Assembly (NCBI GenBank): GCA_046725345.1
Contig: JBKOYJ010000028.1
Location: 1,300-65,299, forward strand
DNA length: 64,000 nt
DNA from: Actinomycetota bacterium
GTDB taxonomy: Bacteria > Actinomycetota > Thermoleophilia > Gaiellales > Gaiellaceae
Reading direction: 5' to 3'
A model generated the notes under the pieces. It saw only the letters and a program-made list of their open reading frames with translations. It was not told the origin of the DNA and did not search any database. The position numbers and the translations under genes were made by a program. Shown piece after piece: positions 3,055 to 17,585 of this stretch (position 1 is its first letter; each line of letters begins with the position of its first letter).

Positions 3055-3057
3055 TCG

Positions 3058-3411: not shown

Positions 3412-3445
3412 CGGCCCTTCTAGACTTTCTGTCGGAATCACGTAC

Positions 3446-3525: not shown

Positions 3526-3563
3526 CCGCAAGATGCGACGCGCTTACGCGACGCATCTTGCGG
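3526..3563 (+). terminator. Strong hairpin immediately 3' of tRNA-Gln (no U tract)
   Basis: ccgcaagatgcg...cgcatcttgcgg form a 12 bp stem. An inner cgcg/cgcg pairing surrounds loop ctta. Confidence 0.4.
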
Positions 3564-3569
3564 CGGTAA

Positions 3570-4934
3570 GTGAAACGGATAACGCCAGCGAAGATGACAG
3601 GGGAAAATCGTCTTGCAGCAGTGGTAATGGCCGGCGGGCTCGGAACGCGGATGCGGTCGGCGACGCCCAAGCATCTTCATCCGCTGCTCGGCCGGCGCAT
3701 GGTCGACTGGGCGGTCGACGCGGTGCGGGCGCTGCGACCGGATCCGCTCGTGGTCGTCTGCTCGCCGGAGGCCGAGCAGCCGCTCTCGGGCTCGCTCGAC
3801 GGGGTGCTTCTCGCCGTCCAACGCAAGGCGCGGGGAACGGGCGACGCCGTCGCGGCGGCCCGTGACTCGCTCGGTGTCTTCGACGGTGACGTGCTCGTCG
3901 TTCCCGGCGACGGCCCGCTGCTGACGCCGCGGCTGCTCGAAGAGGTCGTCGCGACGCACCGGCGCGAGCGGCCTGCGCTGACGATGGTGACGGTCGAGCC
4001 CGAGACGCCGCGGGCGTACGGCCGCGTGCTCCGGAGCGCGACCGGAGACGTCGAAGCCATCGTCGAAGCGAGCGACGCCACGGCCGAGCAGCTCGCGATC
4101 CGGGAGTTGAACGCCTCGATCTACGTCTTCGCGGCCCGTGACCTATGGGGTGCGCTCGACCGTCTCGACGCGAGGAACGCGCAGGGCGAGCTGTACCTGA
4201 CCGATGCGGTCGCCGCGCTCGCGGCGAGCGGCCGGCCGGTGGCGACGTATCGGGCGGACGACGCCTCGGAGGCCGACGGCGTGAACACGCGAACGGAGCT
4301 CGCCGAGGCGGCCGCCGTGCTTCGCGACCGCATCAACGCCGAGCACATGGAGGCGGGCGTGACGATCGTGGATCCGGCGACGACGTGGATCGACGCGGGC
4401 GTCGAGCTCGAGGCCGACGCCGTGATCGAGCCGTTCACCGTGCTCCGCGGCCGGACGCGCGTCGCGCGCGGCGCGGTGATCGGACCGCACACGGTCGTCG
4501 TCGACGCGAACGTCGGCGCGGGGGCGACCGTCGGACCGTTCTGTTACGTTCGGCCCGGAACGGTGCTGGAGGCAGGCGTGAAGGCAGGCACGTTCGTGGA
4601 GATCAAGAACTCCCGGATCGGGGAAGGCACGAAGGTGCCGCATCTCTCGTACATCGGCGACGCCGAGATCGGGGAGGGATCGAACATCGCCGCAGGCAAC
4701 GTCACCGCGAACGTGCGCCACGAGTCCGGGCCGAAGCAGCGCACGAAGATTGGGCGCAACGTCAAGACGGGGATTCACGATTCCTTCGTGGCGCCGGTCG
4801 AGATCGGCGACGGCGCCTGGATCGCGCCCGGCTCGGTGATCACCGAAGACGTGCCCCCCGACTCGCTGGCGGGGTTTCCGCCACGGCAGGAGACCAAGGA
4901 GGGATACGTGCGTGGCAGACGGCGTCGCCACTGA
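3570..4934 (+). CDS. glmU: Bifunctional UDP-N-acetylglucosamine diphosphorylase / glucosamine-1-phosphate N-acetyltransferase
   Basis: N-terminal AAVVMAGGLGTRMRSATPKHLHPLLG nucleotidyltransferase motif and C-terminal left-handed beta-helix hexapeptide repeats (IGEGTKVPHLSYIGDAEIGEGSNIAAG). The start could be the ATG at 3594. Confidence 0.9.
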   Translation: MKRITPAKMTGENRLAAVVMAGGLGTRMRSATPKHLHPLLGRRMVDWAVDAVRALRPDPLVVVCSPEAEQPLSGSLDGVLLAVQRKARGTGDAVAAARDSLGVFDGDVLVVPGDGPLLTPRLLEEVVATHRRERPALTMVTVEPETPRAYGRVLRSATGDVEAIVEASDATAEQLAIRELNASIYVFAARDLWGALDRLDARNAQGELYLTDAVAALAASGRPVATYRADDASEADGVNTRTELAEAAAVLRDRINAEHMEAGVTIVDPATTWIDAGVELEADAVIEPFTVLRGRTRVARGAVIGPHTVVVDANVGAGATVGPFCYVRPGTVLEAGVKAGTFVEIKNSRIGEGTKVPHLSYIGDAEIGEGSNIAAGNVTANVRHESGPKQRTKIGRNVKTGIHDSFVAPVEIGDGAWIAPGSVITEDVPPDSLAGFPPRQETKEGYVRGRRRRH

Positions 4935-5973
4935 GATTCCGCTTCCTGGCCTCGAGACACCCCCCGTCGTCACGGAGCCCACGATCGGCCACTGGCGGGA
5001 GCACGCGCCGCAGAAGCGGCTCATGCTGTTCTCCGGCCGCTCGCACCGCGACCTTGCGGAGCGGATCGGCGAGAAGCTCGGCGTCGAGCTGGGCGAGATC
5101 ACGCTGAAGACGTTCGCCGACGGCGAGACCTACTGCCGCTACGAGGAGTCGATCCGCGGCGCAGACCTCTTCCTCGTCCAGACCGGATGCGAGCCGGTCG
5201 ACCGGAACCTGATGGAGCTCCTGATCATGATCCAGGCCGCGAAGCTGGCTTCGGCGAAGCGGATCACCGCCGTCATCCCGTGGTACCCGTATTCGCGGCA
5301 GGACAAGAAATCGGCGCCCCGCGAGCCGATCACGGGCAAGCTCGTCGCCGACTTCCTGCACACGTCGGGCGTCGACCGCGTGCTCACGATGGATCTTCAC
5401 GCGGGCCAGATTCAGGGCTTCTTCACGATTCCGGTCGACCACATGACGGCGCTACCGCTGTTTTCGCAGTATTTCCGGGACCGCGGCCTCGCAGGCGATG
5501 GCGTCGTGTCCGTGGCCCCCGATGCGGGCCGAGCGAAGATGGGGGTGAAGTTCAGCCAGATGCTGGAGGGCGACTTCGCGATCATGCACAAGACTCGCCC
5601 CGGGCACGACGTCGCCCAGGTCACTGAGGTCACGGGGCGCGTCCGCGGCAAGATCGCGATCGTCGGCGACGACATCATCACGACCGGCGGAACGTTGATC
5701 TCCGGCGCGCGCGCGCTCAAGGACGCCGGCGCGACCGAGGTGCATCTCTTCGCGACACACGGACTGTTCGTCCGCGACGCGCTCGAGCGGCTGGGAGAGG
5801 CTGACGAGGTCGACAGCATCACCGTCACGGATACCGTTCCGGTCGATCTGCTGAAGCAGCCTCAGAAGGTGACCGTCCTGTCGGTGTCCGGCCTCTTGGC
5901 CGAGACGATCTGGAACGTCTTCTCGGACGAGTCCGTGTCCGCGATCTTCGCGGGCGAGAACCAGCTGTTCTAA
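4912..5973 (+). CDS. prs: Ribose-phosphate diphosphokinase
   Basis: LMLFSGRSHRDLAERIGEKLGV...ADGETYCRYEESIRG...DLHAGQIQGFF...IVGDDIITTGGTL are Prs motifs. GTG 4912 overlaps the glmU end; the ATG at 5023 is an alternative start. Confidence 0.9.
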   Translation: MADGVATEIPLPGLETPPVVTEPTIGHWREHAPQKRLMLFSGRSHRDLAERIGEKLGVELGEITLKTFADGETYCRYEESIRGADLFLVQTGCEPVDRNLMELLIMIQAAKLASAKRITAVIPWYPYSRQDKKSAPREPITGKLVADFLHTSGVDRVLTMDLHAGQIQGFFTIPVDHMTALPLFSQYFRDRGLAGDGVVSVAPDAGRAKMGVKFSQMLEGDFAIMHKTRPGHDVAQVTEVTGRVRGKIAIVGDDIITTGGTLISGARALKDAGATEVHLFATHGLFVRDALERLGEADEVDSITVTDTVPVDLLKQPQKVTVLSVSGLLAETIWNVFSDESVSAIFAGENQLF

Positions 5974-5999
5974 CGGCGTCCGCGGCCGCCGGGCTGCGT

Positions 6000-6005
6000 T
6001 ACGGT
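6000..6005 (+). promoter_or_regulatory. -10-like hexamer TACGGT, 6 nt upstream of ATG 6012
   Basis: TANNNT hexamer in the prs-epimerase intergenic region. No Shine-Dalgarno sequence lies between it and the ATG. Confidence 0.3.
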
Positions 6006-6011
6006 TCGCGG

Positions 6012-7361
6012 ATGGCCGAGTCGGCCGATCGAGCCGCCCTCGAGCCGGCCGTCGCCGATCAGCCCGCGCCTCCGTTCGCGGAGGACGAGCGCGAGCGCCT
6101 CTGCGGCGAGCTCGAAGCCGACCTGCGCCGCCACGTCATCGACGCGTGGTTCCCGCGCTGCGTCGACCATGAGCGCGGCGGGTTCTTGTGCGACTTCGAC
6201 CGCCGCTGGCGGGCCCACGGCCCCCAGCGTCGGATGCTGGAGTTCCAAGCCAGGCAGACCCGAACCGCGGCCGAGCTCGCTGTGGCGTTCCCAGCCGACG
6301 GCCGCTGGGCTGAGCTTGCGCTGCACGGCTTCCGGTACCTGCGCGAGCACATGTGGGACCGCGAGCACGGCGGTTGGTACTGGCTCCTCGACGCCTCCGG
6401 GACCCCGCTCCACCGGGCCACGAAGCACGCCCACGGAACCGCCTACGCGATCGGCTCGTGCAGCTCCGTCTTCCGCGCGACCGGCGAGCGCGCCGCGCTC
6501 GAGCTCGCGCTCGAGGGCGCCGAGTGGATCGAGCAGAAGCACCTCGACGAGGAGCACGGTGGCTACGACGGCTGGGTGACGCGGGAAGGACGGAAGATCC
6601 TCTCCGCGGATGCGGCAGGAGGACTCGCCGAACCCCTTGGCGGCCCGCTCGACGAGAAGAACGTCAACGTCCACGGCGACGTCGCACATGCCTTCTCCCT
6701 GCTCGCCGACGTCCACCGAGACGCTGGAGTCGAACGGCGTGCGGCCGCCGCCTGGGACACCCTCATCCGCCGGTTCGTGCTCGCAGACGGGGCCGTGCAG
6801 TACTCCTTCACGCGCGAGTGGAATGTCCTGCCCGAGCTCGAGCGGTTCGGCTACCCGCTCCAGATCGGACATCGCGTCCTTCAGGCGCGGAAGTTGCTGC
6901 TCGCGGCCGGTCACGATCCCATCGCGCTTGCCGGTGCGCTCGTTGGTCACGGGGTCGAACGAGGGTGGCGTGAGCCCGGAGGCATCGTCTACGCCGGGCC
7001 GGCGCGCCCGCCCGATGCAATCGAAGGCGAGCCCGTCTTCCTCTCCCGACGCAGCTGGTGGGTCCAGGCCGAAGGGCTCCACGCGTCGCTCGTCCTGAGC
7101 GCTGCACGGCCGTCGGATGGGCTGTTGCGGCAGCGCTTTCTCGACCTGCACCGGTTCGTTCGCCGTGAGCTGCTCGACCACAGGTACGGAGGCTGGCTGC
7201 AGTTCTCCCGCCACGGCGAGGCCCGGCGCGCCCGTGTCGGGCGTTTGCTCCGCCGGTCGCCTCGCAAAGGCGACGTATGGACCGACGCGTCGCACCAGAC
7301 GGACATGTATCTCGCGTGCCTCCGCACGTTGCGCGGCATCCCCGCCGACGCGCCGCTCTGA
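6012..7361 (+). CDS. AGE-family (N-acylglucosamine 2-epimerase-like) sugar epimerase/isomerase
   Basis: HERGGFLCDFDRRW...LEFQARQT...HMWDREHGGWYWLLDASGTPL...KHAHGTAYAI...DEEHGGY are repeated (alpha/alpha)6-barrel motifs typical of AGE/cellobiose-2-epimerase proteins. Confidence 0.8.
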   Translation: MAESADRAALEPAVADQPAPPFAEDERERLCGELEADLRRHVIDAWFPRCVDHERGGFLCDFDRRWRAHGPQRRMLEFQARQTRTAAELAVAFPADGRWAELALHGFRYLREHMWDREHGGWYWLLDASGTPLHRATKHAHGTAYAIGSCSSVFRATGERAALELALEGAEWIEQKHLDEEHGGYDGWVTREGRKILSADAAGGLAEPLGGPLDEKNVNVHGDVAHAFSLLADVHRDAGVERRAAAAWDTLIRRFVLADGAVQYSFTREWNVLPELERFGYPLQIGHRVLQARKLLLAAGHDPIALAGALVGHGVERGWREPGGIVYAGPARPPDAIEGEPVFLSRRSWWVQAEGLHASLVLSAARPSDGLLRQRFLDLHRFVRRELLDHRYGGWLQFSRHGEARRARVGRLLRRSPRKGDVWTDASHQTDMYLACLRTLRGIPADAPL

Positions 7362-7369
7362 GCGCCGCG

Positions 7370-8512
7370 GTGCTCGAACGGCTGCGCTTCGAGGCCGACG
7401 CCGAGAAGCTCGCGCGCGAGCGAGGGTGGGTGGTTCGCGCGTCGACGCCGGCGCGCTCGAACCGCGTCGACGTCTCGCGCACCTCCGCGGCCGGGGTGGC
7501 GGCGATGCTCGCCGCGGTCGGCCACCATCTCGACGAGCACCAGGCCGCGACGAAGCGCGGGAAGTCGGCCGCAGACGTCGAGCGCTACTACAGGGCTCTG
7601 CACTCGGTGACCCGCTACGAGACGCCGTCCACGTTCACGTGTGAGCTGCCCGACGCGCTCATCGCGGGCGACCAGGGGATCGTCGTCTCGGCCGAAGGCG
7701 ACGTCCTCGTGCAGTCGTCGCTCTACGGCGGCGCCCGTGGCGCGCGTGTCGCGCTCGCGCTCGAGGCCGACGCCGTCCGCTCACCGCAGAGGCTCGCCGG
7801 CAAGTACGTGTCACTCGTCTCGTTCGACGCCGGCAACTACGCCCACTGGCTGCTCGACTGCCTTCCGCGGCTGGATCTGCTCTCCCCGGACGACAGCAGC
7901 TGGAGCGTGCTCGTTCCCCAGGACGTCCGGCCCTTCCAGCTGGAGTCGCTGCGGCTCCTCGGGATCGCGGACGAGCGGATCGTGGCGATGCCGGCGGGCG
8001 CGATCCGGGTCGAGTCGCTGCTGTTCGCCCGCGTCGCCGGACGCACGACGCGCCCGGCGCCCGAGCATCTGCTGGCGATCCGGCGGCGGCTGCTCGACGG
8101 CGCTGGAGCCGGCGGCGAAGGCGGCGACCGCCGGCTCTACGTCTCCCGCGGCGGCGCGTCACGCGCCGTCGTCGACGAGGCGCGGCTCGCGCCAGCACTC
8201 GAGGCCCATGGCTTCGAGCAGATCCATCCGGAGACGCTCCCGCTCGCCGAGCAGATCAGGACGTTCGCCGGCGCGCGAGCGGTGCTCGGCCCTCACGGGG
8301 CGGGCATGCACAACCACCTGTTCGCGCCGGCGGGCGCCGACGTGATCGAGCTCTTCGGCCGTGGCTACCTGTATCTCACAGTGCAACGAGCCGTCGCGAT
8401 CGCCGGCCAGCGGCACTGGCACCTGTTTGGCGAACCGGCCGGCGAGGAGTACGCGACCCGCGTCGATCCGGCCGAGCTGCTCGACCTCCTGGCCCTCGTC
8501 TTCGACGTCTGA
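7370..8512 (+). CDS. Glycosyltransferase family 61 / DUF563 protein
   Basis: YAHWLLDCLPRLDLL...LYVSRGGASRAVVDEARL...GFEQIHPETLPLAEQIRTFAGARAVLGPHGAGMHNHLF is the characteristic DUF563 (GT61) C-terminal pattern. The start is taken at the first GTG after the upstream stop and is uncertain. Confidence 0.75.
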   Translation: MLERLRFEADAEKLARERGWVVRASTPARSNRVDVSRTSAAGVAAMLAAVGHHLDEHQAATKRGKSAADVERYYRALHSVTRYETPSTFTCELPDALIAGDQGIVVSAEGDVLVQSSLYGGARGARVALALEADAVRSPQRLAGKYVSLVSFDAGNYAHWLLDCLPRLDLLSPDDSSWSVLVPQDVRPFQLESLRLLGIADERIVAMPAGAIRVESLLFARVAGRTTRPAPEHLLAIRRRLLDGAGAGGEGGDRRLYVSRGGASRAVVDEARLAPALEAHGFEQIHPETLPLAEQIRTFAGARAVLGPHGAGMHNHLFAPAGADVIELFGRGYLYLTVQRAVAIAGQRHWHLFGEPAGEEYATRVDPAELLDLLALVFDV

Positions 8513-8587
8513 CGCCTCTGAGGGCGCACTTCGAGCGACGCTGCCGCTTGCCGTCTGACTGCACGGACGCCAAGATGACGTCCTTCG

Positions 8588-9034
8588 ATGTCGTCGCCGA
8601 CCGCTGAGAGCCGCTTTCGAAGCCATCCGCGCGTCGTCCACGAGACCATCGAGGGAGAAGTCATCCTGATCCAGATCGAGACGGGCTACTACTACAGCCT
8701 CGGGGGCTCGGGAGCACGGATCTGGCGGCTCCTGGAGCAGGGGCGCTCGCTCGAGGAGGTCGCAGCCGCGCTCGAGCGGACGCACGGGGGAAGCCCAGAG
8801 ATCCGCCCGGCGGTCGCGCGGCTGATCGAAGAGCTCCAGAACGAGACGTTGCTCGAGCCGGCCACGGCTCGGCCCGACGTGTCGGTCGGCGGCGACGACA
8901 CCGAGGCGTCCGAGGTCGCGGGGTCCTTCGTCCCGCCGCTGCTCGAGCGGTACGAGGACATGCAGGACTTCCTGCTCGTGGATCCGATCCACGAGGTCGA
9001 CGACTCGGGCTGGCCCAACAAGAAGACGGCTTGA
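8588..9034 (+). CDS. PqqD-family protein (RiPP recognition element fold) with a ~55 aa acidic C-terminal extension
   Basis: RVVHETIEGEVILIQIETGYYYSLGGSGARIWRLLEQGRSLEEVAAALERTHGGSPEIRPAVARLIEELQNETLL matches the PqqD pattern (beta strands, then a helical bundle). Confidence 0.75.
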   Translation: MSSPTAESRFRSHPRVVHETIEGEVILIQIETGYYYSLGGSGARIWRLLEQGRSLEEVAAALERTHGGSPEIRPAVARLIEELQNETLLEPATARPDVSVGGDDTEASEVAGSFVPPLLERYEDMQDFLLVDPIHEVDDSGWPNKKTA

Positions 9035-10116
9035 CGCGTGTGGGCTCGCACACGCTCGCCGACCGGCGTGACGGGCTCGAGGCGGCCCCGCACGGCACGG
9101 CTCGGGACTACTTCGCGTCGCTGCGGGAGGGATTCGACGCCGCTGTAGCGGCACGCGGCATTCGAACGTACGAGCTTGCCCTCGCCGGCGCCGCGGTACG
9201 CCTGCGGTTCGCGGGCGCCGCTCTGCCACCGGTCGTCATCCGGCCGCTGGCCCAGCTCCCCCGCCCGGTCGGCGACGACCGCGCCGCGACGGCCTGCCTG
9301 TGGGACAGCGAGTCGACGGGGATCGCGCTGCCCGAGCCGCCGTGGCAGCGCCGCGACATCGATCAGCGCTGGGAGGTTCACGGGTTCGGCGACGAGGGGA
9401 TCCAAACGCAGCACGATCCGGAGGCCGGCGTCCTGACGATGTTCGAACCGGCGACCCGCACGGGGATCTGGTGGGCGCCCTCGGTCGCCGCGGTGCCCTG
9501 GTACGACCAGGCTGCGCCACTACGCACGCTTCTGCACTGGACGGTCACGGTGCCAGGCCGCCATCTGCTCCACGCCGGCGCGGTCGCGGTCGCCAACGGC
9601 GCTGCGCTCCTCGTCGGCAAGGGAGGCTCCGGCAAGTCGACGACGGCCGTCCTCTGCCTCGAGGCGGGGTTCGACTACCTCGGCGACGACTACGTCTTGC
9701 TCACGGTGGACCCGGCGCCGACCGTGCACAGCGTGTACAGCACGGCGAAGGTCACGCCGTACACCGTTCGCCGCCTCCCCAGCCTCGAGGCAGCCGTCGT
9801 CGCTCGCGGGCGGCCGTTCGAGAAGAGCGTGGTCGACGTCGCGGCGTACCGCCCGCGCCGGCTGCGCCATTCCGCACCCCCGGCTGCCGTCGTCGTGCCC
9901 ACGGTCACGCCGGGCGAGCGCACGCGGCTGCGCCCGATCGCTGCGGCAGCGTGCCTGCGCGCGCTTGCTCCAAGCACCGTGCTCCAACTCCCGCACGAAG
10001 GCGGCCGGGCACTGAGCGCGATGGCCGAGCTCGTCCGCGAGCTCCCGGCCTACGCGCTCGATCTCGGGGACGACGGCGCGGATGTTCCGGCGCTCCTCCA
10101 CCCGCTCCTGGCGTGA
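9031..10116 (+). CDS. HPr kinase C-terminal-domain-like P-loop protein (HprK-related kinase)
   Basis: LLHAGAVAVANGAALLVGKGGSGKSTTAVLCLEAGFDYLGDDYVLL is the Walker A plus following LGDD motif seen in HprK-like serine kinases of RiPP clusters. The TTG start overlaps the PqqD stop (TTGA). Confidence 0.7.
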   Translation: MTRVGSHTLADRRDGLEAAPHGTARDYFASLREGFDAAVAARGIRTYELALAGAAVRLRFAGAALPPVVIRPLAQLPRPVGDDRAATACLWDSESTGIALPEPPWQRRDIDQRWEVHGFGDEGIQTQHDPEAGVLTMFEPATRTGIWWAPSVAAVPWYDQAAPLRTLLHWTVTVPGRHLLHAGAVAVANGAALLVGKGGSGKSTTAVLCLEAGFDYLGDDYVLLTVDPAPTVHSVYSTAKVTPYTVRRLPSLEAAVVARGRPFEKSVVDVAAYRPRRLRHSAPPAAVVVPTVTPGERTRLRPIAAAACLRALAPSTVLQLPHEGGRALSAMAELVRELPAYALDLGDDGADVPALLHPLLA

Positions 10117-11234
10117 CCGTCGGGGGCGAACACCACGCACGCGTGCTCGTCGTGGACGAGCGCGTGCCGAGGCCCGATCGCGACGGGGGCTCGCTGCGAA
10201 TGGCGAATCTCCTTCGGGTCCTCACGCAGATGGGCCACGACGTCAGCTTCGCCGCGCAGTTCCCGCGCGCCGGCGACCCGCGCGGTCTCGCCGAGAGCGA
10301 CGGCGTTCGATTGGTGTGGGACGAGCGGCCGCTCGTCCATCTCCGAAGGGCTGGGCGACGGTACGACGCCGTGATCCTCAGCCGCCCTGAGGTGGCCGTG
10401 GAGCTCGTCAAGGCCGTCCGGCGCTTCGCGCCCCGGGCGCTGATCCTCTACGACACCGTCGACCTGTCGTTCGTGCGCGAGTTCCGTCTCGCGAAGCTTC
10501 GCCGAAGCCGCTTTCTGCTCGACGTCGCCCTGCGGCGGCGCAGACAGGAGCTGAGCCTCGTTCGCGCTGCCGACCGGACGCTCGTCGTCAGCGAGCGCGA
10601 GAAGCAGGTGCTCGAGGAGGCGTGTCCGGGCGCGGCCGTCCATGTCGTCTCGAACGTCCACGAGAGCGCGGGAGCGAAGCGCGGCTTCGGCGAGCGCTCG
10701 GGTGCACTCTTCGTCGGCAACTTCGGCCACGAGCCGAACGCCGACGCGATGCGTCATCTCGTCGAGGACGTCTGGCCCGTTGTCCGTGCGAGCAGGCACG
10801 GGCTCGAGCTGCACGTCGTCGGCGGCGAACCGCCGGACTGGCTCCTGGACCTCGGCGCGACGGACGTCCACGTCGCCGGCTGGGTCGACCACGCGACGCT
10901 CGAGGAGTACCTCCAGCGCTGCCGCCTGTCGGTGGCCCCGCTGCGCGCCGGCGCCGGCGTCAAGGGGAAGGTGCTCGCCAGCCTCGGGAGCGGTCTTCCG
11001 GTTGTCGGTTCCGCGATTGCGTTCGAGGGCATCCCGGTCGCGGATGGGCACGAGGTGCTGGTCGCGGACGACCCGGCAACCTTCGCCCGCGCCGTCGCTC
11101 GCCTCCACGACGACGAGCGGCTCTGGACCGAGCTCTCGGAGCGCGGTGTGGCGGTCGTCGCGGAGCGCTTCTCCTCGGGGGCGGCGAAGGCTGGTCTCGC
11201 CGCCGCGCTGGCTCCGGTGGAGGCGCTGGCATGA
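10113..11234 (+). CDS. Glycosyltransferase, GT4 (Glycos_transf_1) type
   Basis: HARVLVVDERVP...GGSLRMANLLRVL at the N-terminus. C-terminal ...VAPLRAGAGVKGKVLASLGSGLPVVGSAIAFEGI... is a retaining GT-B E(x7)E-like region. GTG overlaps the previous stop. Confidence 0.85.
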   Translation: MTVGGEHHARVLVVDERVPRPDRDGGSLRMANLLRVLTQMGHDVSFAAQFPRAGDPRGLAESDGVRLVWDERPLVHLRRAGRRYDAVILSRPEVAVELVKAVRRFAPRALILYDTVDLSFVREFRLAKLRRSRFLLDVALRRRRQELSLVRAADRTLVVSEREKQVLEEACPGAAVHVVSNVHESAGAKRGFGERSGALFVGNFGHEPNADAMRHLVEDVWPVVRASRHGLELHVVGGEPPDWLLDLGATDVHVAGWVDHATLEEYLQRCRLSVAPLRAGAGVKGKVLASLGSGLPVVGSAIAFEGIPVADGHEVLVADDPATFARAVARLHDDERLWTELSERGVAVVAERFSSGAAKAGLAAALAPVEALA

Positions 11235-11911
11235 CGGGCCCGCTCGTCAGCGCGATCATCCCCGCCCATGAAGGCGAGCGGTTCCTCCACGCCGCGATCG
11301 GGAGCGTTCTGGCGCAGGAGTACACCCCGCTGGAGGTGATCGTCGTCGACGACGGGTCGACGGACGGCAGCGCCGATGTCGCGGCATCGTTTCCCGTCCG
11401 GTGCCTCCGTCAGCCGAACCTCGGCGTGGCGGCAGCGCGAAACGCGGGGCTCGCAGCCGCCGGCGGCGAGGTGATCTCCTTTCTCGACCAGGACGACCTC
11501 TGGCCACCCGCCAAGCTCGCCGTCCAGGTCGGGCATCTGCTCGAGCATCCCGAGCTCGGGTTCGTCGTGGGCCGGATGGAGGTCTTCCTGGAGCCCGGCG
11601 CACCGCGGCCGGCCTGGATGCACGTCGACCAGCCGGCGTTCTTGCTCGGGGCGCTCGTCGCGTGGCGACACGTGTTCGACCTGGTCGGCGCGTTCGAGAC
11701 GGGATACACGGTCTCGAGCGACGCGGACTGGTTCGCACGTGCGAAGGACGCCGGGATCCCGCGCGCGGTCCTGCCCGAGGTCGTCCTCCGCTATCGCATC
11801 CACGAGCAGAACGCGTCGCACAGACGCGACGTGCTCTGGCACGAGACGATGCAGGTGCTCCGACGCTCGGTGGAGCGCCGGCGTGCGGGGCAGGCGGCCG
11901 ATGGCGACTGA
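11231..11911 (+). CDS. Glycosyltransferase family 2
   Basis: VSAIIPAHEGERFLHAAIGSVLAQEYTPLEVIVVDDGSTDGS...ARNAGLAAAGGEVISFLDQDDLW is the canonical GT2 DxD region. ATG overlaps the previous stop (ATGA). Confidence 0.85.
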   Translation: MTGPLVSAIIPAHEGERFLHAAIGSVLAQEYTPLEVIVVDDGSTDGSADVAASFPVRCLRQPNLGVAAARNAGLAAAGGEVISFLDQDDLWPPAKLAVQVGHLLEHPELGFVVGRMEVFLEPGAPRPAWMHVDQPAFLLGALVAWRHVFDLVGAFETGYTVSSDADWFARAKDAGIPRAVLPEVVLRYRIHEQNASHRRDVLWHETMQVLRRSVERRRAGQAADGD

Positions 11912-12581
11912 CTCGGTCTCGGTCGTCATCCCCGTTCGGAACGGCGCACGCTACCTGGGCGCGGCGATCGAGAGCGTGCTGGCGCAGACGACGTCTCCTT
12001 TGGAGCTGATCGTCGTTGATGACGGCTCGACTGACGCGAGCGTCGAGGTGGCTGCGGAGTACGCGGCCGTCCGCGTCGTCTCACAGGCACACGCTGGCCC
12101 CGGCGCGGCGCGAAACCGCGGCGTCGAGCTCGCGGGCGGCGCGTACGTCGCGTTCCTCGACGCGGACGACGTCTGGGTCGAGACGAAGCTCGAGCGCCAG
12201 CTCGCCGCCTTCGCAGCCCAGCCGTCGGCGGACGTCGTGGTCGGATATGTCCGCCACTTCGCGGGCCACCGGCCGCCCGACGACGATGGCGACGGGGACC
12301 CGGGTGAGCTCCGACCGGGCTACCTGCCGAGCGCGGTCCTTCTGTCGCGCTCGGCGTGGCAGGCCGTCGGCCCGTTCCGGACGGACCTGCGTGTTGCAGA
12401 GCTCATGGACTGGCTCCTGCGTGCCCGCGAGCTCGGTCGCCGCGAACTCGTGGTGCCCGATCACGTCGTCTGGCGCCGGGTCCACGGTGAGAATCTCACG
12501 ATCGTGGAGCGCGCGAGCCTGGGCGAGTACGCGCACATCCTCAAGGGAGCGCTCGACCGCCGGCGCGAGGCGGCCCGCTAA
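11901..12581 (+). CDS. Glycosyltransferase family 2
   Basis: VSVVIPVRNGARYLGAAIESVLAQTTSPLELIVVDDGSTDAS...ARNRGVELAGGAYVAFLDADDVW. 11 nt overlap with the preceding GT2. Confidence 0.85.
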   Translation: MATDSVSVVIPVRNGARYLGAAIESVLAQTTSPLELIVVDDGSTDASVEVAAEYAAVRVVSQAHAGPGAARNRGVELAGGAYVAFLDADDVWVETKLERQLAAFAAQPSADVVVGYVRHFAGHRPPDDDGDGDPGELRPGYLPSAVLLSRSAWQAVGPFRTDLRVAELMDWLLRARELGRRELVVPDHVVWRRVHGENLTIVERASLGEYAHILKGALDRRREAAR

Positions 12582-14269
12582 TGCGCACGTGGCTCCTCTT
12601 CGCGCGCCTGTTCGCCGACTCCAAGCATCTGCTCCTCGTCAGCCTCGTTCTGTCGCTCGCGCAGTCGCTCGTGCTGGTGCCGATCGCGCTCCTCGTGCGG
12701 CACGCATTCGACGTCATCCTCCCGGCGGGCGATCGTCTCGAGCTCGCGTGGATCGCTGCGCTGATGCTCGCGCTCTACCTGACGAGCATCGCACTCGCGC
12801 TGCTGACGCGCCACACCGTCCTGCAGGCGACGAAGGCGGCCGTGACCAAACTTCGCGTTCGCCTGTTCGAGCGCCTCTTCTCCTTTCCGGCGTCGTACTA
12901 CGACGCCCACGACGTCGGCACGCTTCACGCGACGATCACCAAGGACATCGAGCGCTTCGACCTCATGACCTACGCGGTCGTCGCGTTCATCCTGCCGCCG
13001 TTCGTGATCGCCACCGCGCTGTCGGCGGCGCTCGTCACCGTCAGCCCGATCCTCTTCCTCGTACTCGCCCTCGCCCTGCCCGTCATGGGCGTCGCGAGCC
13101 ACGTCATGGGCGGGCAGGTGCGCTCGCGCTCGCGCGAGTGGCAGGAGGCGTACGCAGTCTTCAGCTCGGATGCCCTAATCACCCTCAGGGCGATGACGTT
13201 GCTGAAGGTCCACGCCCTCGAAGACGTGCGCCTGCAACGCGCCGCCGTGCTGTTCGAAGAGCTCGCGCGGACCGGCCGGAGACTCAGCTGGATGCAGTCG
13301 GCGTACTCGCTCATCAACGGCTCGCTCGCCGCCGCCGCGGGGGTCCTCGTCCTCGTCGTGGGCGGGATCGCGGTGATCGACGGCCGGATGACGCTCGGCG
13401 AGCTGCTCTCCTTCTACTCGCTGCTCGCGCTGCTCCGGTCGCAGCTGACGAGCGTGATGTGGGGGGCGCCGATCGCCGTGGCCGGACGGGAGTCGCTCGA
13501 GCGCCTGCGGGCGCTCCTGCTTGCGTCCGAGCGCGACCCGTACCGGGGAACGTCTGTGATCGACTTCACCGGGGCGATCGACGTCGAGCACGTGACGTTC
13601 GGATATCGGAATGGAGACGAGCCCGTGCTGCGGGACGTGACGGTGTCCCTGCGACCGGGCGAGGTGGTGGCCTTGATCGGACCGAACGGGGCGGGGAAGA
13701 GCACGCTCGCGCGGCTCGCCGTCGGCCTCTACAAGCCTCAGCGCGGACGTGTTCTGGCCGACGGGATCCCGCTCGACGAGCTCGATCTGCACGCGCTGAG
13801 GCGGCGGATCGCCGTCGTCGACCAGGACCCGTTCATCTTCCCGACGACGGTTCGCGAGAACATCGCGTTCGGCGCCGAAGGCGGCAGCGAGGAGCAGATC
13901 CGCGCCGCGGCCGCCGCCGTTGGGGTTGACACGTTCGCGGAGACGCTGCCGGATGGCTACGACTCGCAGGTCGGCGACGAGGGCGCGCTTCTCTCGGGCG
14001 GCGAGCGTCAGCGGGTCGCGATCGCCCGGGCGCTCGCGCGCCGCCCGGCGCTGCTCGTGCTCGATGAACCGACCTCGTCTCTCGACCCTGACGCCGTGGA
14101 GCAGTTGCTCGCGAACCTGCACGAATTCCCCGGGTCGCCCGCCGTCCTCGTTATCACCCACGACCCCTCGCTCGTGGGTGCGGCGGATCGGGTCTACGTG
14201 CTCCGAGAGGGGAGGGCTGTCGGGACGGTCGCCCCGCCGGTGCCGACGGCCGCCGAGGACGAGGCGTGA
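12581..14269 (+). CDS. ABC exporter, fused transmembrane and ATP-binding domains (MsbA/MdlB-like)
   Basis: Six-helix N-terminal half, then GPNGAGKSTLARL (Walker A), LSGGERQRVAIARAL (signature), LLVLDEPTSSLD (Walker B), ITHD (H loop). Confidence 0.9.
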   Translation: MRTWLLFARLFADSKHLLLVSLVLSLAQSLVLVPIALLVRHAFDVILPAGDRLELAWIAALMLALYLTSIALALLTRHTVLQATKAAVTKLRVRLFERLFSFPASYYDAHDVGTLHATITKDIERFDLMTYAVVAFILPPFVIATALSAALVTVSPILFLVLALALPVMGVASHVMGGQVRSRSREWQEAYAVFSSDALITLRAMTLLKVHALEDVRLQRAAVLFEELARTGRRLSWMQSAYSLINGSLAAAAGVLVLVVGGIAVIDGRMTLGELLSFYSLLALLRSQLTSVMWGAPIAVAGRESLERLRALLLASERDPYRGTSVIDFTGAIDVEHVTFGYRNGDEPVLRDVTVSLRPGEVVALIGPNGAGKSTLARLAVGLYKPQRGRVLADGIPLDELDLHALRRRIAVVDQDPFIFPTTVRENIAFGAEGGSEEQIRAAAAAVGVDTFAETLPDGYDSQVGDEGALLSGGERQRVAIARALARRPALLVLDEPTSSLDPDAVEQLLANLHEFPGSPAVLVITHDPSLVGAADRVYVLREGRAVGTVAPPVPTAAEDEA

Positions 14270-15387
14270 TGCGAGCGGGTGGACACGCCTTCCCGACCTT
14301 CCGCCAGGAGGCGCTGATCCGGGCGGCCGTCCTCGAGGGCGATGCGGCGAGGTCGGCCTGGAAGCAGTGGCTGGCGCTCGGCGGCAACGTCGATCGGATC
14401 GACGGCGCGTCCTACGGGCTGTTGCCGCAGGTGTACCGGAACCTCGAGGCGATCGCTCCGGAGGAACCCCTGCTCGCGAAGCTCAAGGGTGTCTACCGCT
14501 ATCACTGGTACCGCAACCAGGTGCTGCTCCACGGCGCTGCCGATGCCGTCCGCGCGCTCGAGGCGGCCGGCGTTCCGACCCTCGTGCTGAAGGGGGCGGC
14601 GCTCGCGATCCTCCACTACGGCGACGCGGGCGCGCGCCCGATGGAGGACGTTGACGTGCTCGTCCCGCGGGAGCGCGTGCACGAAGCGATGGAGGTTGTG
14701 CGGCAGGCAGGCTTCGCCTCCGTGCCTGCCACACCGGCGACGTCGGTCGGCGTCGGGCACGCGCGCACGTTCCTCTCCGGGGCCGACCACTCGCTCGACC
14801 TCCACTGGTGGGCGCTCGCGCAGGCGGCGCGCGACGACGACTTCTGGCGGGGCGCGGTCCCGCTGGCGCTCGCAGGGGTGCGGACGCGCGCGCTCGCGCC
14901 CGCGCACCAGCTCCTGCACGTGTGCGTGCACGGCTTGCGGATCCACGAGACGCCGCCGCTGCGCTGGGTGCCCGACTCCTTGCTCGTGCTGCGCTCGCCC
15001 GGCGGCGAGGTCGACTGGGAGGCGCTGGTCGCCGGGGCTCGTGCCCGCGCGCTCACGGTCCACGTCGGAGCGGCGCTCACGTACCTTCGGGAGAGGTTCG
15101 CGGCGCCCGTGCCGCCGCAGGTGCTCGATCGCCTGCGGACCTCGCCGAGCTCGCTGCTCGAGCGCTGGACGTACCGCGCGAGCGTGATGCCTCCGCCCCG
15201 CGCCGCGCGCGTCCTTCTCCACGTCGATCGGTACCGAAGGCTGCGAGCGGCCGGCGACCTCGAGCCGGGGACCTCGTTCCTGCGCTTCTGGGCGCGCTCG
15301 CGCGCACTGGAGCACCCCGCGCAACTCCCGGCGCAGGTGCTCCGCCGGTACGTCGAGCACCTCCGTGCGCGGAGCGCTACGTCCTGA
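14266..15387 (+). CDS. Uncharacterised nucleotidyltransferase family protein (NTP_transf_5 / PF14907-like)
   Basis: LLPQVYRNL...VLKGAALAILHYGDAGARPMEDVDVLVPRERVHEAMEVVRQAGF...LDLHWW is the pattern of PF14907-type proteins found next to PqqD/HprK-like genes. Confidence 0.65.
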   Translation: MMRAGGHAFPTFRQEALIRAAVLEGDAARSAWKQWLALGGNVDRIDGASYGLLPQVYRNLEAIAPEEPLLAKLKGVYRYHWYRNQVLLHGAADAVRALEAAGVPTLVLKGAALAILHYGDAGARPMEDVDVLVPRERVHEAMEVVRQAGFASVPATPATSVGVGHARTFLSGADHSLDLHWWALAQAARDDDFWRGAVPLALAGVRTRALAPAHQLLHVCVHGLRIHETPPLRWVPDSLLVLRSPGGEVDWEALVAGARARALTVHVGAALTYLRERFAAPVPPQVLDRLRTSPSSLLERWTYRASVMPPPRAARVLLHVDRYRRLRAAGDLEPGTSFLRFWARSRALEHPAQLPAQVLRRYVEHLRARSATS

Positions 15388-15401
15388 GCTCAGAGCCTTT
15401 T

Positions 15402-15503
15402 CGGTTGGTGTCCGGGCGTGTCGACCGGTCACCTCAGACGCGTGCACGGGCCAAGCCCGTGCACGCTGAATGTCGGCGCCGCCGAGTCGGGGCCTTTAGG
15501 GCG
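15402..15503. repeat. Structured intergenic repeat, family A, copy 1 (~100 nt)
   Basis: About 90 % identical by eye to 36660..36758. Core hairpin gcgtgcacgggc-caa-gcccgtgcacgc (12 bp). Lies between convergent genes and supplies the TAA stop of the minus-strand GT2. Confidence 0.8.
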
Positions 15504-16209
15504 ACGCGTGGCGCCTGCGGTCGATCCTTCCTTTCAGCGCCCGGACCGCCTCGCGCTGGCAGCTCTCGACGTCGTAGGTCAGGTTCGCCCCGTGTATGCG
15601 CCTGACGACGACGACGTCGTCGAGGATCCCGACCCCGACGTCGCCGTCCTGGGCACGGAAGAGCCAGTCGACGTCCTCGGCGTAGCGGAACGACGCGTCG
15701 AAGGGGCCGATCCGCTCGAGGGCCGTCCTCCGAACGAGCGCCGACATCGGCTGCACGAGCTCGGATTCGCCGCCGTCGACGCCCGCCTTCCCGACCCATT
15801 CTGGCGGCTCGACACCCGGCTCGACGGCGATGCGCTGGCGGCCGAGGACGCAGGCGTATTCCGGCCGCTCGCGGAGGTAGGCGACCTGCCGCTCGAGCCG
15901 GTCCGGAAGCATCACGTCGTCGGCGTCCAGGAAGGCGACGTACTCGCCTGTCGCCGCGGCGACACCGCGGTTCCGCGCCGCGGCCTGCCCGGCGCGTTCC
16001 TGCCGAAGGCCATGGACGTTCGGATACGACGCGATGATCTCAGGTGTCCGATCCGTCGACCCGTCGTCGACGACGACGATCTCGACGGTCGGATACGTCT
16101 GCGCGAGCACGCTGTCGATCGCCTCCGCGAGGAAGCGGGCGCCGTTGAAGACCGGAGTCACGACGGAGACGAGCGTCGGCACGGCGCGTGATGACGGCGA
16201 GCTCCGCAC
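15496..16209 (-). CDS. Glycosyltransferase family 2
   Basis: VSVVTPVFNGARFLAEAIDSVLAQTYPTVEIVVVDDGSTDRT...ARNRGVAAATGEYVAFLDADDVM. Confidence 0.85.
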   Translation of the reverse strand: MRSSPSSRAVPTLVSVVTPVFNGARFLAEAIDSVLAQTYPTVEIVVVDDGSTDRTPEIIASYPNVHGLRQERAGQAAARNRGVAAATGEYVAFLDADDVMLPDRLERQVAYLRERPEYACVLGRQRIAVEPGVEPPEWVGKAGVDGGESELVQPMSALVRRTALERIGPFDASFRYAEDVDWLFRAQDGDVGVGILDDVVVVRRIHGANLTYDVESCQREAVRALKGRIDRRRHASP

Positions 16210-16242
16210 TTGGCAGATGGTAGAGGCGGCGGTCGGGCGCGC

Positions 16243-16248
16243 TACAAT
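16243..16248 (+). promoter_or_regulatory. -10 box TACAAT, 8 nt upstream of GTG 16257 (likely leaderless rplY/ctc mRNA)
   Basis: Near-consensus hexamer in a 47 nt divergent intergenic region, with no SD. Confidence 0.4.
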
Positions 16249-16256
16249 CGCGCGCC

Positions 16257-16985
16257 GTGGCCGAGCGCGTTCGCATCCAGGCGCAGGAGCGCGACACCCG
16301 CGGGTCCCGCGAGTCGCGTCGCCTCCGTCGCGCAGGGAAGATCCCAGGCGTGATCTACGGGCGCGGCCGCGATCCGCACGCGATCTGCATCGACGAGCGC
16401 GAGCTCCGGCGTGCGCTCAGCGGCCCGGGCGGCCTGCACGCGATCCTCGACGTCGTACTCGACGGCGGAAGCCCGAGCCCGGCCGTCCTGAAGGACTATC
16501 AGCAGCATCCGATCCGCGGGACCCTTACGCACTTCGACCTCCACGCCGTGCGCCTGGACGAGCCGATCCAGGCCACCGTGGTCGTCCAGCTCGTCGGCGA
16601 GTCGGCGGGAGCGAAGGAGGGCGGCGTGCTCTCGCAGGTCACGCGCGAGCTCAACGTCCAGGCGCTGCCGATGGACATTCCCGAGCACATCGACGCCGAC
16701 GTCAGCGAGATGCACATCGGCGACACGCTCCGGCTCGCCGACCTGCCGGCGATCGAGGGCGTGACGTTCCTCGACGACCCGGAGGAGACGGTGCTGGCAA
16801 CGGTGACGCAGCCGACTCGCGTCGAGCTGCCCGAGGACCTCGTCGAGGAGGAGGCCGAGGAGGGCGAAGAGGGCGAAGTCCCCGAAGGTGAGGAGGCTCC
16901 CGAAGGCGCGACGGAGACCGCCGCCGCTCCCGGTGCGCTCCCTGCCTCGGACGACGAGGGCGAGTCCGGCACGACGTCCGGCTAG
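16257..16985 (+). CDS. rplY: 50S ribosomal protein L25 / general stress protein Ctc, with acidic C-terminal tail
   Basis: RGSRESRRLRRAGKIPGVIYGRG...HAILDVVLDG...VLKDYQQHPIRGTLTHFDL is the Ctc-type L25 pattern. Confidence 0.9.
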   Translation: MAERVRIQAQERDTRGSRESRRLRRAGKIPGVIYGRGRDPHAICIDERELRRALSGPGGLHAILDVVLDGGSPSPAVLKDYQQHPIRGTLTHFDLHAVRLDEPIQATVVVQLVGESAGAKEGGVLSQVTRELNVQALPMDIPEHIDADVSEMHIGDTLRLADLPAIEGVTFLDDPEETVLATVTQPTRVELPEDLVEEEAEEGEEGEVPEGEEAPEGATETAAAPGALPASDDEGESGTTSG

Positions 16986-16991
16986 CCAGCT

Positions 16992-17585
16992 ATGCGCCTG
17001 TTTCGGCGGGGCGAGACCGCCCCGTCGCTCGACTTGCTGGTGGCGGGCCTCGGCAATCCAGGACGGGAGTACGAGCGCAACCGGCACAACGTCGGCTGGA
17101 TGGTCGCCGAGGAGCTCGCGCGGCGGCACGGCGGCTCGTGGCGCGGAAAATTCTCCGGACGGCTGGCCGAGGTGCGCGTGGACGGCAATCGTGTCGCGCT
17201 GTTGAAGCCGGAGACGTACATGAACGAATCGGGCCGCTCGGTCGGCGCCGCCCTGCGCTTCTTCAAGCTTCCGCCGGAGGGTCTGCTGGTGGTGCACGAC
17301 GAGGGCGACCTCGATCTCGGCCGGCTGCAGGCGCGCCGCGGCGGCGGTCTCGCCGGCCACAACGGGCTGCGCTCGGTCGCGGGGCAGCTGGGAACGCCGG
17401 AGTTCCTCCGCCTGCGTGTCGGCGTGGGCCGTCCCGAGCGCGGCGATCGCCGCTCGCTCTCCGACTTTGTGCTCTCCGACTTCGAGCCCGGGGACGACGC
17501 CGAGGGCGTCGTCGCGCGCGCGGCGGACGCGGTCGAGACGGTCGTCCGCGACGGCCTCGAGGCCGCCCAGCAGCGCTACAACTGA
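16992..17585 (+). CDS. pth: Peptidyl-tRNA hydrolase
   Basis: LLVAGLGNPGREYERNRHNVGWMV...LLKPETYMNESG...VVHDEGDL...GGLAGHNGLRS. Confidence 0.9.
   Translation: MRLFRRGETAPSLDLLVAGLGNPGREYERNRHNVGWMVAEELARRHGGSWRGKFSGRLAEVRVDGNRVALLKPETYMNESGRSVGAALRFFKLPPEGLLVVHDEGDLDLGRLQARRGGGLAGHNGLRSVAGQLGTPEFLRLRVGVGRPERGDRRSLSDFVLSDFEPGDDAEGVVARAADAVETVVRDGLEAAQQRYN

What the first reader, a model, noticed from the sequence alone, without database searches (positions are those of the whole stretch)
5974..16256. About 10 kb accessory block lying inside the otherwise conserved glmU-prs-ctc-pth-mfd gene string
Seen: glmU (3570..4934) and prs (4912..5973) are followed by ten sugar- or peptide-modification genes. 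Only after these come rplY/ctc (16257), pth and mfd. Established: glmU-prs-ctc-pth-mfd is a widely conserved contiguous arrangement in Gram-positive bacteria. Inference: the 6.0-16.2 kb block is a lineage-specific insertion. No integrase, transposase or flanking direct repeat is visible and the composition looks native by eye, so it is not an obvious mobile island. Placement next to glmU (UDP-GlcNAc supply) and an AGE epimerase hints at a GlcNAc/ManNAc-derived product. A family A repeat copy (15402..15503) sits at the only convergent junction within the block.
Basis: partly seen in the sequence, partly recalled or inferred. Interest (0 to 1): 0.6.

Follow-up and report, generated by a model that had tools for sequence, protein, structure and literature searches.

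The report
Sugar-peptide gene cassette inserted between prs and rplY
A 10.3 kb, ten-gene block really does split the usually adjacent prs and rplY genes of an uncultured soil actinobacterium (Gaiellaceae); it is an old, native-looking insertion at a junction that varies across the family, and it carries a widespread, unstudied peptide-chaperone, kinase and sugar-transferase export cassette.

Summary
Ten genes (6012-16182) lie between prs and rplY. A second public assembly, 99.78% identical, has the same arrangement.

The insertion reading is supported, with one correction: in Gaiellaceae the prs|rplY junction is not fixed. In 90 family genomes the gap runs from about 30 bp to 26 kb (median 0.77 kb) and holds unrelated cargo. 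A -10 box just upstream of rplY is present in all six genomes inspected, so the junction is an operon boundary where insertions cost nothing.

The nearest sampled genus has gaps of 45 bp, 154 bp and 5.6 kb, with none of the block's genes. Block composition is fully native. There is no integrase, tRNA or flanking repeat at the ends. "Repeat A" is a genome-wide REP-like element.

The block's core is a cassette found in at least 8 phyla: a PqqD-type peptide-recognition protein (RRE), an HprK-like kinase, three short GT2 glycosyltransferases, an ABC exporter and a PF14907 nucleotidyltransferase. It occurs in about 9% of family genomes, elsewhere in the five compared. The RRE carries a fused, highly conserved lasso-leader-like tail.

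The closest characterised systems are the LPP and paeninodin-type tailoring clusters. The product is inferred, not shown. This scan has noted the cassette 87 times on other DNA. The insertion is ordinary; the cargo is moderately interesting.

The parts
3627..5973 (+). glmU (3627-4934) and prs (4912-5973): the left conserved flank, end of an upstream operon
   Evidence: Pfam; NCBI gene calls in L037; syntenic in relatives
5974..6011 (.). Left junction: a 38-bp spacer between the prs stop codon and the AGE start. No terminator-like site and no repeat.
6012..7361 (+). AGE-superfamily (N-acylglucosamine / cellobiose 2-epimerase-like) enzyme. Lineage-specific add-on to the cassette.
   Evidence: PF07221 E 5e-23; below all NCBIfam cut-offs; PDB relatives 8h1k and 3wkf; a 66%-identical fragment lies next to a short GT2 on metagenome contig L069
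7370..8512 (+). GT61-family glycosyltransferase. Add-on, also found directly upstream of PqqD on the contig of P0003, one of the two closest full-length kinase relatives (51%).
   Evidence: PF04577 E 1e-24; weak PDB match to POMGNT2; contig of P0003
8588..9034 (+). PqqD-type RRE (residues 9-91), variable linker, then a conserved tail (residues 114-148, nt 8927-9031): FxxPxL, then DMQDFLLVDPIHEVxxxGWP
   Evidence: PF05402; alignment invariants D132 P133 I134 H135 G141 P143; AF2 pLDDT 94 for residues 111-120 with a strand at 118-122; Foldseek top hits are lasso B1 proteins solved with their leaders
9040..10116 (+). HprK-like P-loop kinase (Walker A GKGGSGKST)
   Evidence: TIGR04352 E 6e-10 but 38.7 bits against a cut-off of 200; weak PF07475; more than 1,120 homologues at E<=1e-10; sequence
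10113..11234 (+). GT4 (GT-B) glycosyltransferase, an add-on between the kinase and the GT2s
   Evidence: PF13692 E 2e-21; TIGR03087-like at 99.7 bits against a cut-off of 316; absent from cassettes in the other loci
11231..12581 (+). GT2a (11231-11911) and GT2b (11901-12581): tandem short GT-A glycosyltransferases with DxD motifs; cassette core
   Evidence: PF00535; 72% nt identity over 130 nt between them; homologues in all cassette loci; PDB relatives are glycan-elongating GT2s
12581..14269 (+). ABC half-transporter exporter (MsbA/HepA-like), with no peptidase domain
   Evidence: PF00664 + PF00005; NCBIfam; present in the cassettes of G007, G108, G214 and the Lentisphaerae locus
14269..15387 (+). 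PF14907 nucleotidyltransferase with an EDVDV acidic motif. By annotation it resembles PsmN/LppN, which the papers call uncharacterised NTP transferases.
   Evidence: PF14907 E 3e-38; sequence; PsmN role in PMC6993621
15388..15510 (.). Copy of a genome-wide REP-like repeat of about 100 nt with a 12-bp GC hairpin, at the convergent NTP5/GT2c junction
   Evidence: more than 80 blastn matches across contigs; fold -61 kcal/mol, z -2.2
15496..16182 (-). GT2c: third short GT2 of the cassette, convergent with the operon
   Evidence: PF00535 E 4e-39; the same convergent position after NTP5 in G109
16243..16248 (+). TACAAT -10 box, 8 nt before the rplY GTG; marks the right edge of the insertion
   Evidence: TAnnnT found 8-12 nt before the rplY start in G006, G013, G001, G083 and G020 whatever the gap size
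16257..17585 (+). rplY/ctc (16257-16985) and pth (16992-17585): the right conserved flank
   Evidence: Pfam; synteny

Best explanation
The block is an old, fully ameliorated insertion of accessory genes at the boundary between two transcription units, in an uncultured Gaiellaceae bacterium. The glmU-prs operon ends at the prs stop codon. rplY-pth starts from its own compact promoter, a -10 box 8-12 nt before the start codon, which implies a leaderless or near-leaderless mRNA. DNA placed between those two points disturbs neither flank, so the junction has collected different cargo in different lineages.

The cargo here is one tightly packed nine-gene operon (AGE to NTP5, with overlapping stop and start codons) plus one convergent GT2. 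Its core is a cassette conserved across phyla: a PqqD-type RRE, an HprK-like kinase, three short GT2 glycosyltransferases, an ABC exporter and a PF14907 nucleotidyltransferase. In this lineage AGE, GT61 and GT4 enzymes have been added.

The mechanism is inferred. The RRE binds its own fused FxxPxL leader-like segment and presents the invariant tail (or a substrate encoded elsewhere). The kinase phosphorylates it. The PF14907 enzyme and the glycosyltransferases build a phosphate-linked glycan. The ABC transporter exports the product.

Shown here: gene content, synteny, composition, tail conservation and the predicted docking of the tail. Inferred: the insertion mechanism, co-transcription with prs, the substrate and the chemistry.
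For: Synteny. prs and rplY lie 22-106 bp apart in 6 of 7 genomes of two sister families, and under 100 bp apart in 12 of 90 family genomes; the median gap is 769 bp. The nearest genus has gaps of 45 bp, 154 bp and 5.6 kb, without block genes. Cargo elsewhere is unrelated: cyclase-SBP with MarR, NMO, an MR/MLE enzyme, an RTX protein, sulfatases, ABC systems. A -10 box is conserved before rplY.

Distribution. The cassette lies at other loci in the five relatives compared, and HprK-like homologues occur in only 26 of 300 family genomes. The kinase copies from family genomes fall in at least three clades.

Age and reality. Composition is native, the block contains a native dispersed repeat, and a second assembly shares the arrangement.

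Cassette. It is conserved in Pseudomonadota, Lentisphaerota, Planctomycetota, Cloacimonadota, Chloroflexota, Gemmatimonadota and Actinomycetota. The tail is the most conserved part of the RRE protein. AF2 places FxxPxL as a confident strand. The fold matches lasso B1 proteins solved with their leaders. Published PsmK/PsmN and LppK/LppB/LppD/LppN work gives the enzyme precedents.
Against: No mobility gene, att site or repeat marks the ends, so how the block arrived is unknown. No same-genus genome lacking the block is available, so the event cannot be dated, and loss elsewhere cannot be formally excluded. The closest kinase relatives (51%) are metagenomic and of unknown taxon, so vertical descent with relocation cannot be separated from horizontal transfer. 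The tail has no conserved Ser or Thr, unlike PsmA or LppA, whose Ser is the phospho-acceptor, so the tail may be a docking element and not the substrate. AF2 confidence for residues 131-148 is low (56-59). LppN showed no activity in the published heterologous test.
Confidence: 0.7

Rival explanations
1. The block is an ordinary cell-envelope or exopolysaccharide locus. The glycosyltransferases, epimerase and ABC transporter build and flip a lipid-linked glycan fed by GlmU, and the PqqD, kinase and nucleotidyltransferase genes are accessory regulators.
For: Five glycosyltransferases plus an AGE-type enzyme sit next to glmU. The GT4 resembles PEP-CTERM/XrtA-system GTs. The GT2s' solved relatives elongate glycans. 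The ABC protein matches MsbA and PglK-type models among many others. Published LPP clusters are embedded in capsule loci.
Against: The block has no initiating phosphoglycosyltransferase, Wzx/Wzy/Wzz, polymerase or nucleotide-sugar synthesis genes. The part conserved across phyla is exactly the RRE + kinase + short GT2s + PF14907 set, not the sugar-supply genes. RREs are peptide-binding domains, and this one carries a peptide motif.
Confidence: 0.2
2. The block supplies tailoring and export in trans for the lasso peptide encoded on contig C135 of the same genome. The fused tail merely keeps the RRE occupied until that precursor arrives.
For: C135 carries a lasso cluster with B1, a cyclase, a 53-aa ORF, an HprK-like kinase and B2, but no PF14907 gene. 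Popov et al. report that LPP and paeninodin-type clusters often co-occur in one genome.
Against: The C135 cluster has its own RRE and kinase. Of the cassette loci inspected, only the C135 lasso cluster of this genome has a cyclase or B2; the cassette loci themselves showed none, though relatives' genomes were not searched for lasso genes. The 53-aa ORF has no clear [Y/W]xxPxL motif and does not end in Ser. The genome is 72% complete, so a missing gene proves little.
Confidence: 0.08
3. The arrangement is ancestral to a deeper Gaiellaceae clade, and prs-rplY adjacency elsewhere results from repeated loss.
For: Composition is fully native. The cassette occurs in 17 of 89 sampled genera. No genome of the same genus was available for comparison.
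Against: Adjacency is the state in sister families and in the nearest genus. Other lineages hold unrelated cargo in the same gap rather than remnants of this block. In the five relatives compared the cassette sits at other loci, and the kinase tree is not family-monophyletic.
Confidence: 0.07

Closest known systems
Linear polyphosphorylated peptide (LPP) clusters of Bacillota, lppA-K-B-S-D-N (Popov et al., Nat Commun 2026, PMC13381572)
   Same: [quoted passage not shown] The leader motif is of the [Y/W]xxPx[L/V] type.
   Different: This block has no SpI-like leader peptidase and no separate precursor gene. The leader-like motif is fused to the RRE itself. Two or three short GT2s are part of the conserved core. 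The tail lacks the conserved Ser that LppK phosphorylates. The host is an actinobacterium.
Paeninodin / pseudomycoidin-type lasso peptide tailoring (PadeK/PsmK kinase, PsmN; PMC6993621)
   Same: The kinase plus NTP-transferase pair. In pseudomycoidin the pair phosphorylates a terminal Ser and then adds one or two hexoses. Both systems also have a B1-type RRE and an ABC exporter.
   Different: The block has no cyclase, B2 protease or precursor; the genome's real lasso cluster is on another contig (C135). The block's kinase is only 32% identical to that cluster's kinase, over 63 residues.
NCBIfam 'HprK-related kinase A' (TIGR04352). From memory, NCBI pairs it with a PqqD model (TIGR04353) as the 'HPr-rel-A system' in PEP-CTERM/exosortase loci.
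   Same: An HprK-related kinase paired with a PqqD-family protein in a glycan-rich neighbourhood; the function is uncharacterised.
   Different: The kinase scores 38.7 bits against a cut-off of 200, and the PqqD protein gave no TIGR04353 hit at E<=0.01. It is a related but distinct family.
Variable, integrase-free 'islets' at conserved operon boundaries in bacterial core genomes
   Same: Lineage-specific cargo at a fixed junction between conserved genes, with no mobility genes and native composition.
   Different: Nothing distinctive. In this respect the finding is an ordinary example.

Membership tests
Integrase-mediated genomic island / mobile element | Integrase, recombinase or transposase gene | tested here: not met
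   Pfam and NCBIfam on all ten genes found none. The genes are packed too tightly to leave room for another.
Integrase-mediated genomic island / mobile element | Flanking direct repeats (att) or insertion next to a tRNA | tested here: not met
   No flanking repeat. The only tRNA (Gln, 3446-3519) is 2.4 kb from the left end, beyond glmU and prs.
Integrase-mediated genomic island / mobile element | Composition deviating from the host genome | tested here: not met
   Tetranucleotide distance at the 50th percentile; GC and codon usage are native.
LPP RiPP cluster (Popov 2026) | Discrete lasso-type RRE | tested here: met
   PF05402. The AF2 model matches TbiB1 and lasso B1 structures, TM 0.78-0.87 normalised to the target.
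LPP RiPP cluster (Popov 2026) | HprK-like kinase, PF14907-type NTP transferase and MsbA-like exporter | tested here: met
   Walker A and acidic motifs present. Catalytic activity was not tested.
LPP RiPP cluster (Popov 2026) | SpI-like (SipW-type) leader peptidase | tested here: not met
   No peptidase domain in any block gene.
LPP RiPP cluster (Popov 2026) | Separate precursor gene with the YxxPxVLxHQxIxFETxxS motif | tested here: not met
   Intergenic gaps are at most 108 bp. A six-frame regex for the LPP motif found nothing in the genome. The only leader-like motif is in the RRE tail.
Lasso peptide cluster | Asn-synthetase-like cyclase (C) and transglutaminase-like protease (B2) in the locus | tested here: not met
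   Absent from the block. Both are present on contig C135.
TIGR04352 / TIGR04353 'HPr-rel-A' system | Scores above the curated cut-offs of both models | tested here: not met
   The kinase scores 38.7 against 200 bits; the PqqD protein has no TIGR04353 hit.
Wzx/Wzy or ABC-dependent polysaccharide locus | Initiating phosphoglycosyltransferase and polymerase / chain-length genes | tested here: not met
   None among the ten genes. The rest of the genome was not searched.
Multi-phylum RRE-kinase-GT2-PF14907 cassette (unnamed) | Co-linear PqqD with conserved tail, HprK-like kinase, at least one short GT2 and PF14907 | tested here: met
   The same set appears in 12 family loci and 8 loci from other phyla. 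The tail motif is conserved in 42 aligned homologues.

The most novel reading that the evidence does not exclude
The RRE protein is its own substrate. Its fused leader-like segment docks in cis, and the invariant DPIHEV...GWP tail is phosphorylated on a non-hydroxyl residue or otherwise primed. It is then extended by the PF14907 enzyme and the three GT2s into a phosphate-linked glycan, so a protein-primed glycoconjugate is built and exported without any separate precursor gene.
Probability: 0.2. Interest if true: 0.8.

Novelty: new variant of a known kind. Interest (0 to 1): 0.4.

Why it matters
For genome architecture, the result refines a textbook synteny. In Gaiellaceae the glmU-prs | rplY-pth-mfd string is two transcription units. 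Their boundary is a recurrent landing site for accessory genes, which makes it a useful anchor for finding lineage-specific cargo in fragmented MAGs.

For function, the cargo is another example of a very widespread but uncharacterised relative of the LPP and paeninodin tailoring machinery, in which the peptide-recognition protein carries its own leader. This version is complete and export-equipped (kinase, nucleotidyltransferase, five glycosyltransferases, exporter), and it comes from a phylum with good heterologous hosts. That makes it a reasonable construct for working out what the cassette makes.

Tried and rejected
Mobile island: rejected, because there is no integrase, att site, adjacent tRNA or compositional signal.

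Repeat A as a block boundary or cassette feature: rejected, because it is a genome-wide repeat with more than 80 copies.

Misassembly: rejected by the second assembly.

Separate precursor ORF: none found. Intergenic gaps are at most 108 bp, and there is no conserved small ORF upstream of PqqD in G007 (greA is adjacent), L038 or the window. A six-frame regex for the tail-core motif (DMxD...DP) hit only the PqqD gene itself; a looser DPIHEV-type pattern gave nine other scattered hits that I did not examine, and the LPP motif gave none.

Metagenome scan with AGE: found no prs-adjacent relative. The best hit (66%) lies next to a short GT2 on a 61.5% GC contig.

Literature searches for 'HprK-related kinase' and 'ScmC' gave nothing useful.

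Sequence search of the PDB found no solved relative for the kinase or the PF14907 protein.

The kinase tree could not separate horizontal transfer from vertical descent, because the nearest sequences have no taxonomy. One row, L034 (Gemmatimonadota), was mislabelled as family in that script, so the group counts in that output are off by one.

The gap statistics were read by hand from the listed matches, about 90 of 300 genomes, and are biased towards the higher-scoring ones.


Full report
**What is there.** The window is about 71% GC. Real genes were picked by third-position GC and then named with Pfam and NCBIfam. The order is ksgA, ispE, a 117-aa conserved gene, tRNA-Gln, glmU and prs (ending at 5973), then ten genes, then rplY at 16257, pth and mfd.

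The ten genes are:
- an AGE-superfamily enzyme, 6012-7361
- a GT61 glycosyltransferase, 7370-8512
- a 148-aa PqqD-family protein, 8588-9034
- an HprK-like P-loop kinase, 9040-10116
- a GT4 glycosyltransferase, 10113-11234
- two tandem short GT2s, 11231-11911 and 11901-12581
- an ABC half-transporter, 12581-14269
- a PF14907 nucleotidyltransferase, 14269-15387
- a third short GT2 on the minus strand, 15496-16182

From PqqD to the nucleotidyltransferase, successive genes overlap or abut, with no spacer beyond 5 bp. The first nine genes therefore read as one operon that begins 38 bp after prs, with no terminator-like site in between.

A second public assembly (GCA_046729495.1) carries the same 17.7 kb at 99.78% identity, with the same gene calls. 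The arrangement is real. Record titles of the closest rplY relatives place the organism in Gaiellaceae, class Thermoleophilia.

**Is it an insertion?** I located prs and rplY in 40 relatives and then in a 300-genome sample of the family. In two sister families the genes are 22-106 bp apart in six of seven genomes.

Within the family I could read both positions on one contig for 90 genomes. The median gap is 769 bp:

| Gap size | Genomes |
|---|---|
| under 100 bp | 12 |
| 0.1-1 kb | 39 |
| 1-5 kb | 28 |
| 5-10 kb | 9 |
| over 10 kb | 2 (16.1 and 26.5 kb, verified) |

The 10.3 kb block here is the third largest. The three genomes of the genus with the most similar prs (77-80%) have 45 bp, 154 bp and 5.6 kb.

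I fetched about 35 of these intervals. None contains a homologue of the block's AGE, GT61, PqqD, kinase, GT4 or PF14907 genes. Their cargo is unrelated: an adenylate-cyclase/solute-binding fusion with a MarR regulator, a nitronate monooxygenase, an enolase-superfamily enzyme, RTX-repeat proteins, sulfatases and ABC systems.

The premise needs softening, though. In this family the prs|rplY junction is a recurrent variable spot, not a fixed adjacency.

**Why this junction.** In six genomes with gaps from 45 bp to 10.3 kb, a TAnnnT box sits 8-12 nt before the rplY start codon (TACAAT-N8-GTG in the window). rplY therefore has its own compact promoter, and probably a leaderless or near-leaderless mRNA. 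prs ends the preceding unit. Any DNA placed between the prs stop codon and that -10 box leaves both flanks intact. This explains the tolerance for cargo.

**How and when.** There is no integrase, transposase, att-like repeat or adjacent tRNA. Composition is indistinguishable from the genome. The tetranucleotide distance sits at the 50th percentile of 463 windows, GC is 71.6% against 70.9 +/- 1.3%, and every gene lies within the 28th-70th percentile of native codon usage.

The repeat at 15388-15510 is one of more than 80 dispersed copies of a hairpin element of about 100 nt. It is a native REP-like element, not a boundary.

The insertion is therefore old or came from a similar genome, and its mechanism is unknown. 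It predates the split of the two 99.8%-identical assemblies and postdates the split from the sampled genera. No same-genus genome was available to narrow this.

**What the cargo is.** HprK-like homologues occur in 26 of 300 family genomes and 17 of 89 genera, at no more than 42% identity. Where both could be placed, they lie away from prs: in G007 at 2.24 Mb against 0.43 Mb, and on other contigs in G006, G019, G008 and G043.

The same co-linear set recurs in the 12 family loci examined and in loci from Pseudomonadota, Lentisphaerota, Planctomycetota, Cloacimonadota, Chloroflexota and Gemmatimonadota. The set is PqqD, the kinase, one to three GT2s of about 225 aa, PF14907, and sometimes the ABC exporter. 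The big protein database holds more than 1,120 kinase homologues at E<=1e-10. The nearest are an 89%-identical fragment and then 51%.

In a kinase tree the family's copies fall into at least three clades. The window's copy groups with untyped metagenomic sequences. Horizontal and vertical histories cannot be separated.

AGE, GT61 and GT4 are add-ons. GT61 also precedes PqqD on the contig of P0003, one of the two closest full-length kinase relatives (51%). A 66%-identical AGE fragment lies beside a short GT2 on another contig.

**The RRE tail.** The PqqD protein has about 55 residues more than a normal RRE; the genome's own lasso B1 is 98 aa. Across 42 homologues the tail is the most conserved segment: (F/Y/W)xxPxL, then DMQDFLLVDPIHEVxxxGWP, with D132, P133, I134, H135, G141 and P143 invariant. 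A variable linker separates it from the domain.

AlphaFold2 models the domain at pLDDT 94 or higher. The linker scores 59. Residues 111-120 (GSFVPPLLE) score 94, with a strand at 118-122, and the rest of the tail scores 56-74. Foldseek's best matches are lasso B1 proteins crystallised with their leader peptides (5v1v, 5v1u, 6jx3).

[Y/W]xxPx[L/V] is the leader motif those RREs bind, as cited in PMC13381572. The simplest reading is that this RRE holds its own leader-like segment in cis. I could not inspect contacts, because the tool returns no coordinates.

**Closest known systems and mechanism.** In pseudomycoidin, an HprK-family kinase phosphorylates the terminal Ser, and the uncharacterised NTP transferase PsmN is needed to add one or two hexoses to the phosphorylated peptide (PMC6993621).

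Popov et al. 2026 describe LPP clusters (PMC13381572). [quoted passage not shown]

The block shares the RRE, kinase, transferase and pump. It lacks the peptidase, the separate precursor and the lasso enzymes, and it adds conserved GT2s. Catalytic motifs are present: Walker A in the kinase, EDVDV in PF14907 and DxD in all three GT2s.

I therefore favour a phospho-glycosylation and export pathway acting on the RRE's own tail or on a substrate encoded elsewhere. The weak point is that the tail has no conserved Ser or Thr.

**Rivals.**
- A plain envelope-glycan locus. The block lacks initiating and polymerising enzymes.
- Trans-tailoring of the lasso peptide from contig C135, which has its own RRE and kinase.
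- Ancestral presence with repeated loss. Outgroup adjacency and the unrelated cargo elsewhere argue against it.

**Standing.** As a genome-architecture observation this is an ordinary, well-supported case of accessory genes at an operon boundary. The cargo belongs to a cassette that this scan has already noted 87 times in other genomes, and the same stretch has its own separate follow-up. I score interest at 0.4 and class the cassette as a new variant of the LPP/paeninodin-type kind.

Noticed in passing
G000 contig C135:1-4900 (locus L077): A separate kinase-bearing lasso-peptide cluster: ABC-2 permease, B1 RRE (1109-1405), cyclase (1402-3213), a 53-aa candidate precursor (3330-3491), an HprK-like kinase (3562-4410) and B2 (3978-4880). 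The cluster has no PF14907 gene.
   Followed up: partly
window 16211-16256, and the equivalent spacers in L025-L028 and L042: A conserved TAnnnT box lies 8-12 nt before the rplY start in six Gaiellaceae genomes. This implies a leaderless or near-leaderless rplY-pth transcript. In the window, the divergent GT2c start is only 47-74 bp away.
   Followed up: partly
window 15388-15510 and 36660-36758; more than 80 other places in G000: A dispersed REP/MITE-like repeat of about 100 nt with a 12-bp GC hairpin (GCGTGCACGGGC-CAA-GCCCGTGCACGC). The two copies examined in the window lie between convergent genes.
   Followed up: partly
window 17689-18011 against L037 18617-18816: The second assembly departs from the window at the start of mfd. 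The 99.8% alignment stops at 17689 and resumes at 87.5% identity with a 123-nt offset, close to that contig's end. This is either an indel or repeat variant, or a contig-end artefact.
   Followed up: no
G022 contigs C109 and C5 (loci L023, L024): In a relative whose prs is 73% identical, both contigs break inside the prs-rplY interval: 258 bp after prs and 273 bp before rplY. The junction may hold something there that is hard to assemble.
   Followed up: no
L010 (G006 C180) and L059 (G043 C7): Two family genomes carry divergently arranged double cassettes, with two HprK-like kinases that belong to different clades.
   Followed up: partly
window 3058-3411: A 117-aa ORF with no Pfam family lies between ispE and tRNA-Gln. 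It is conserved (53% identity) at the same place in G022.
   Followed up: no
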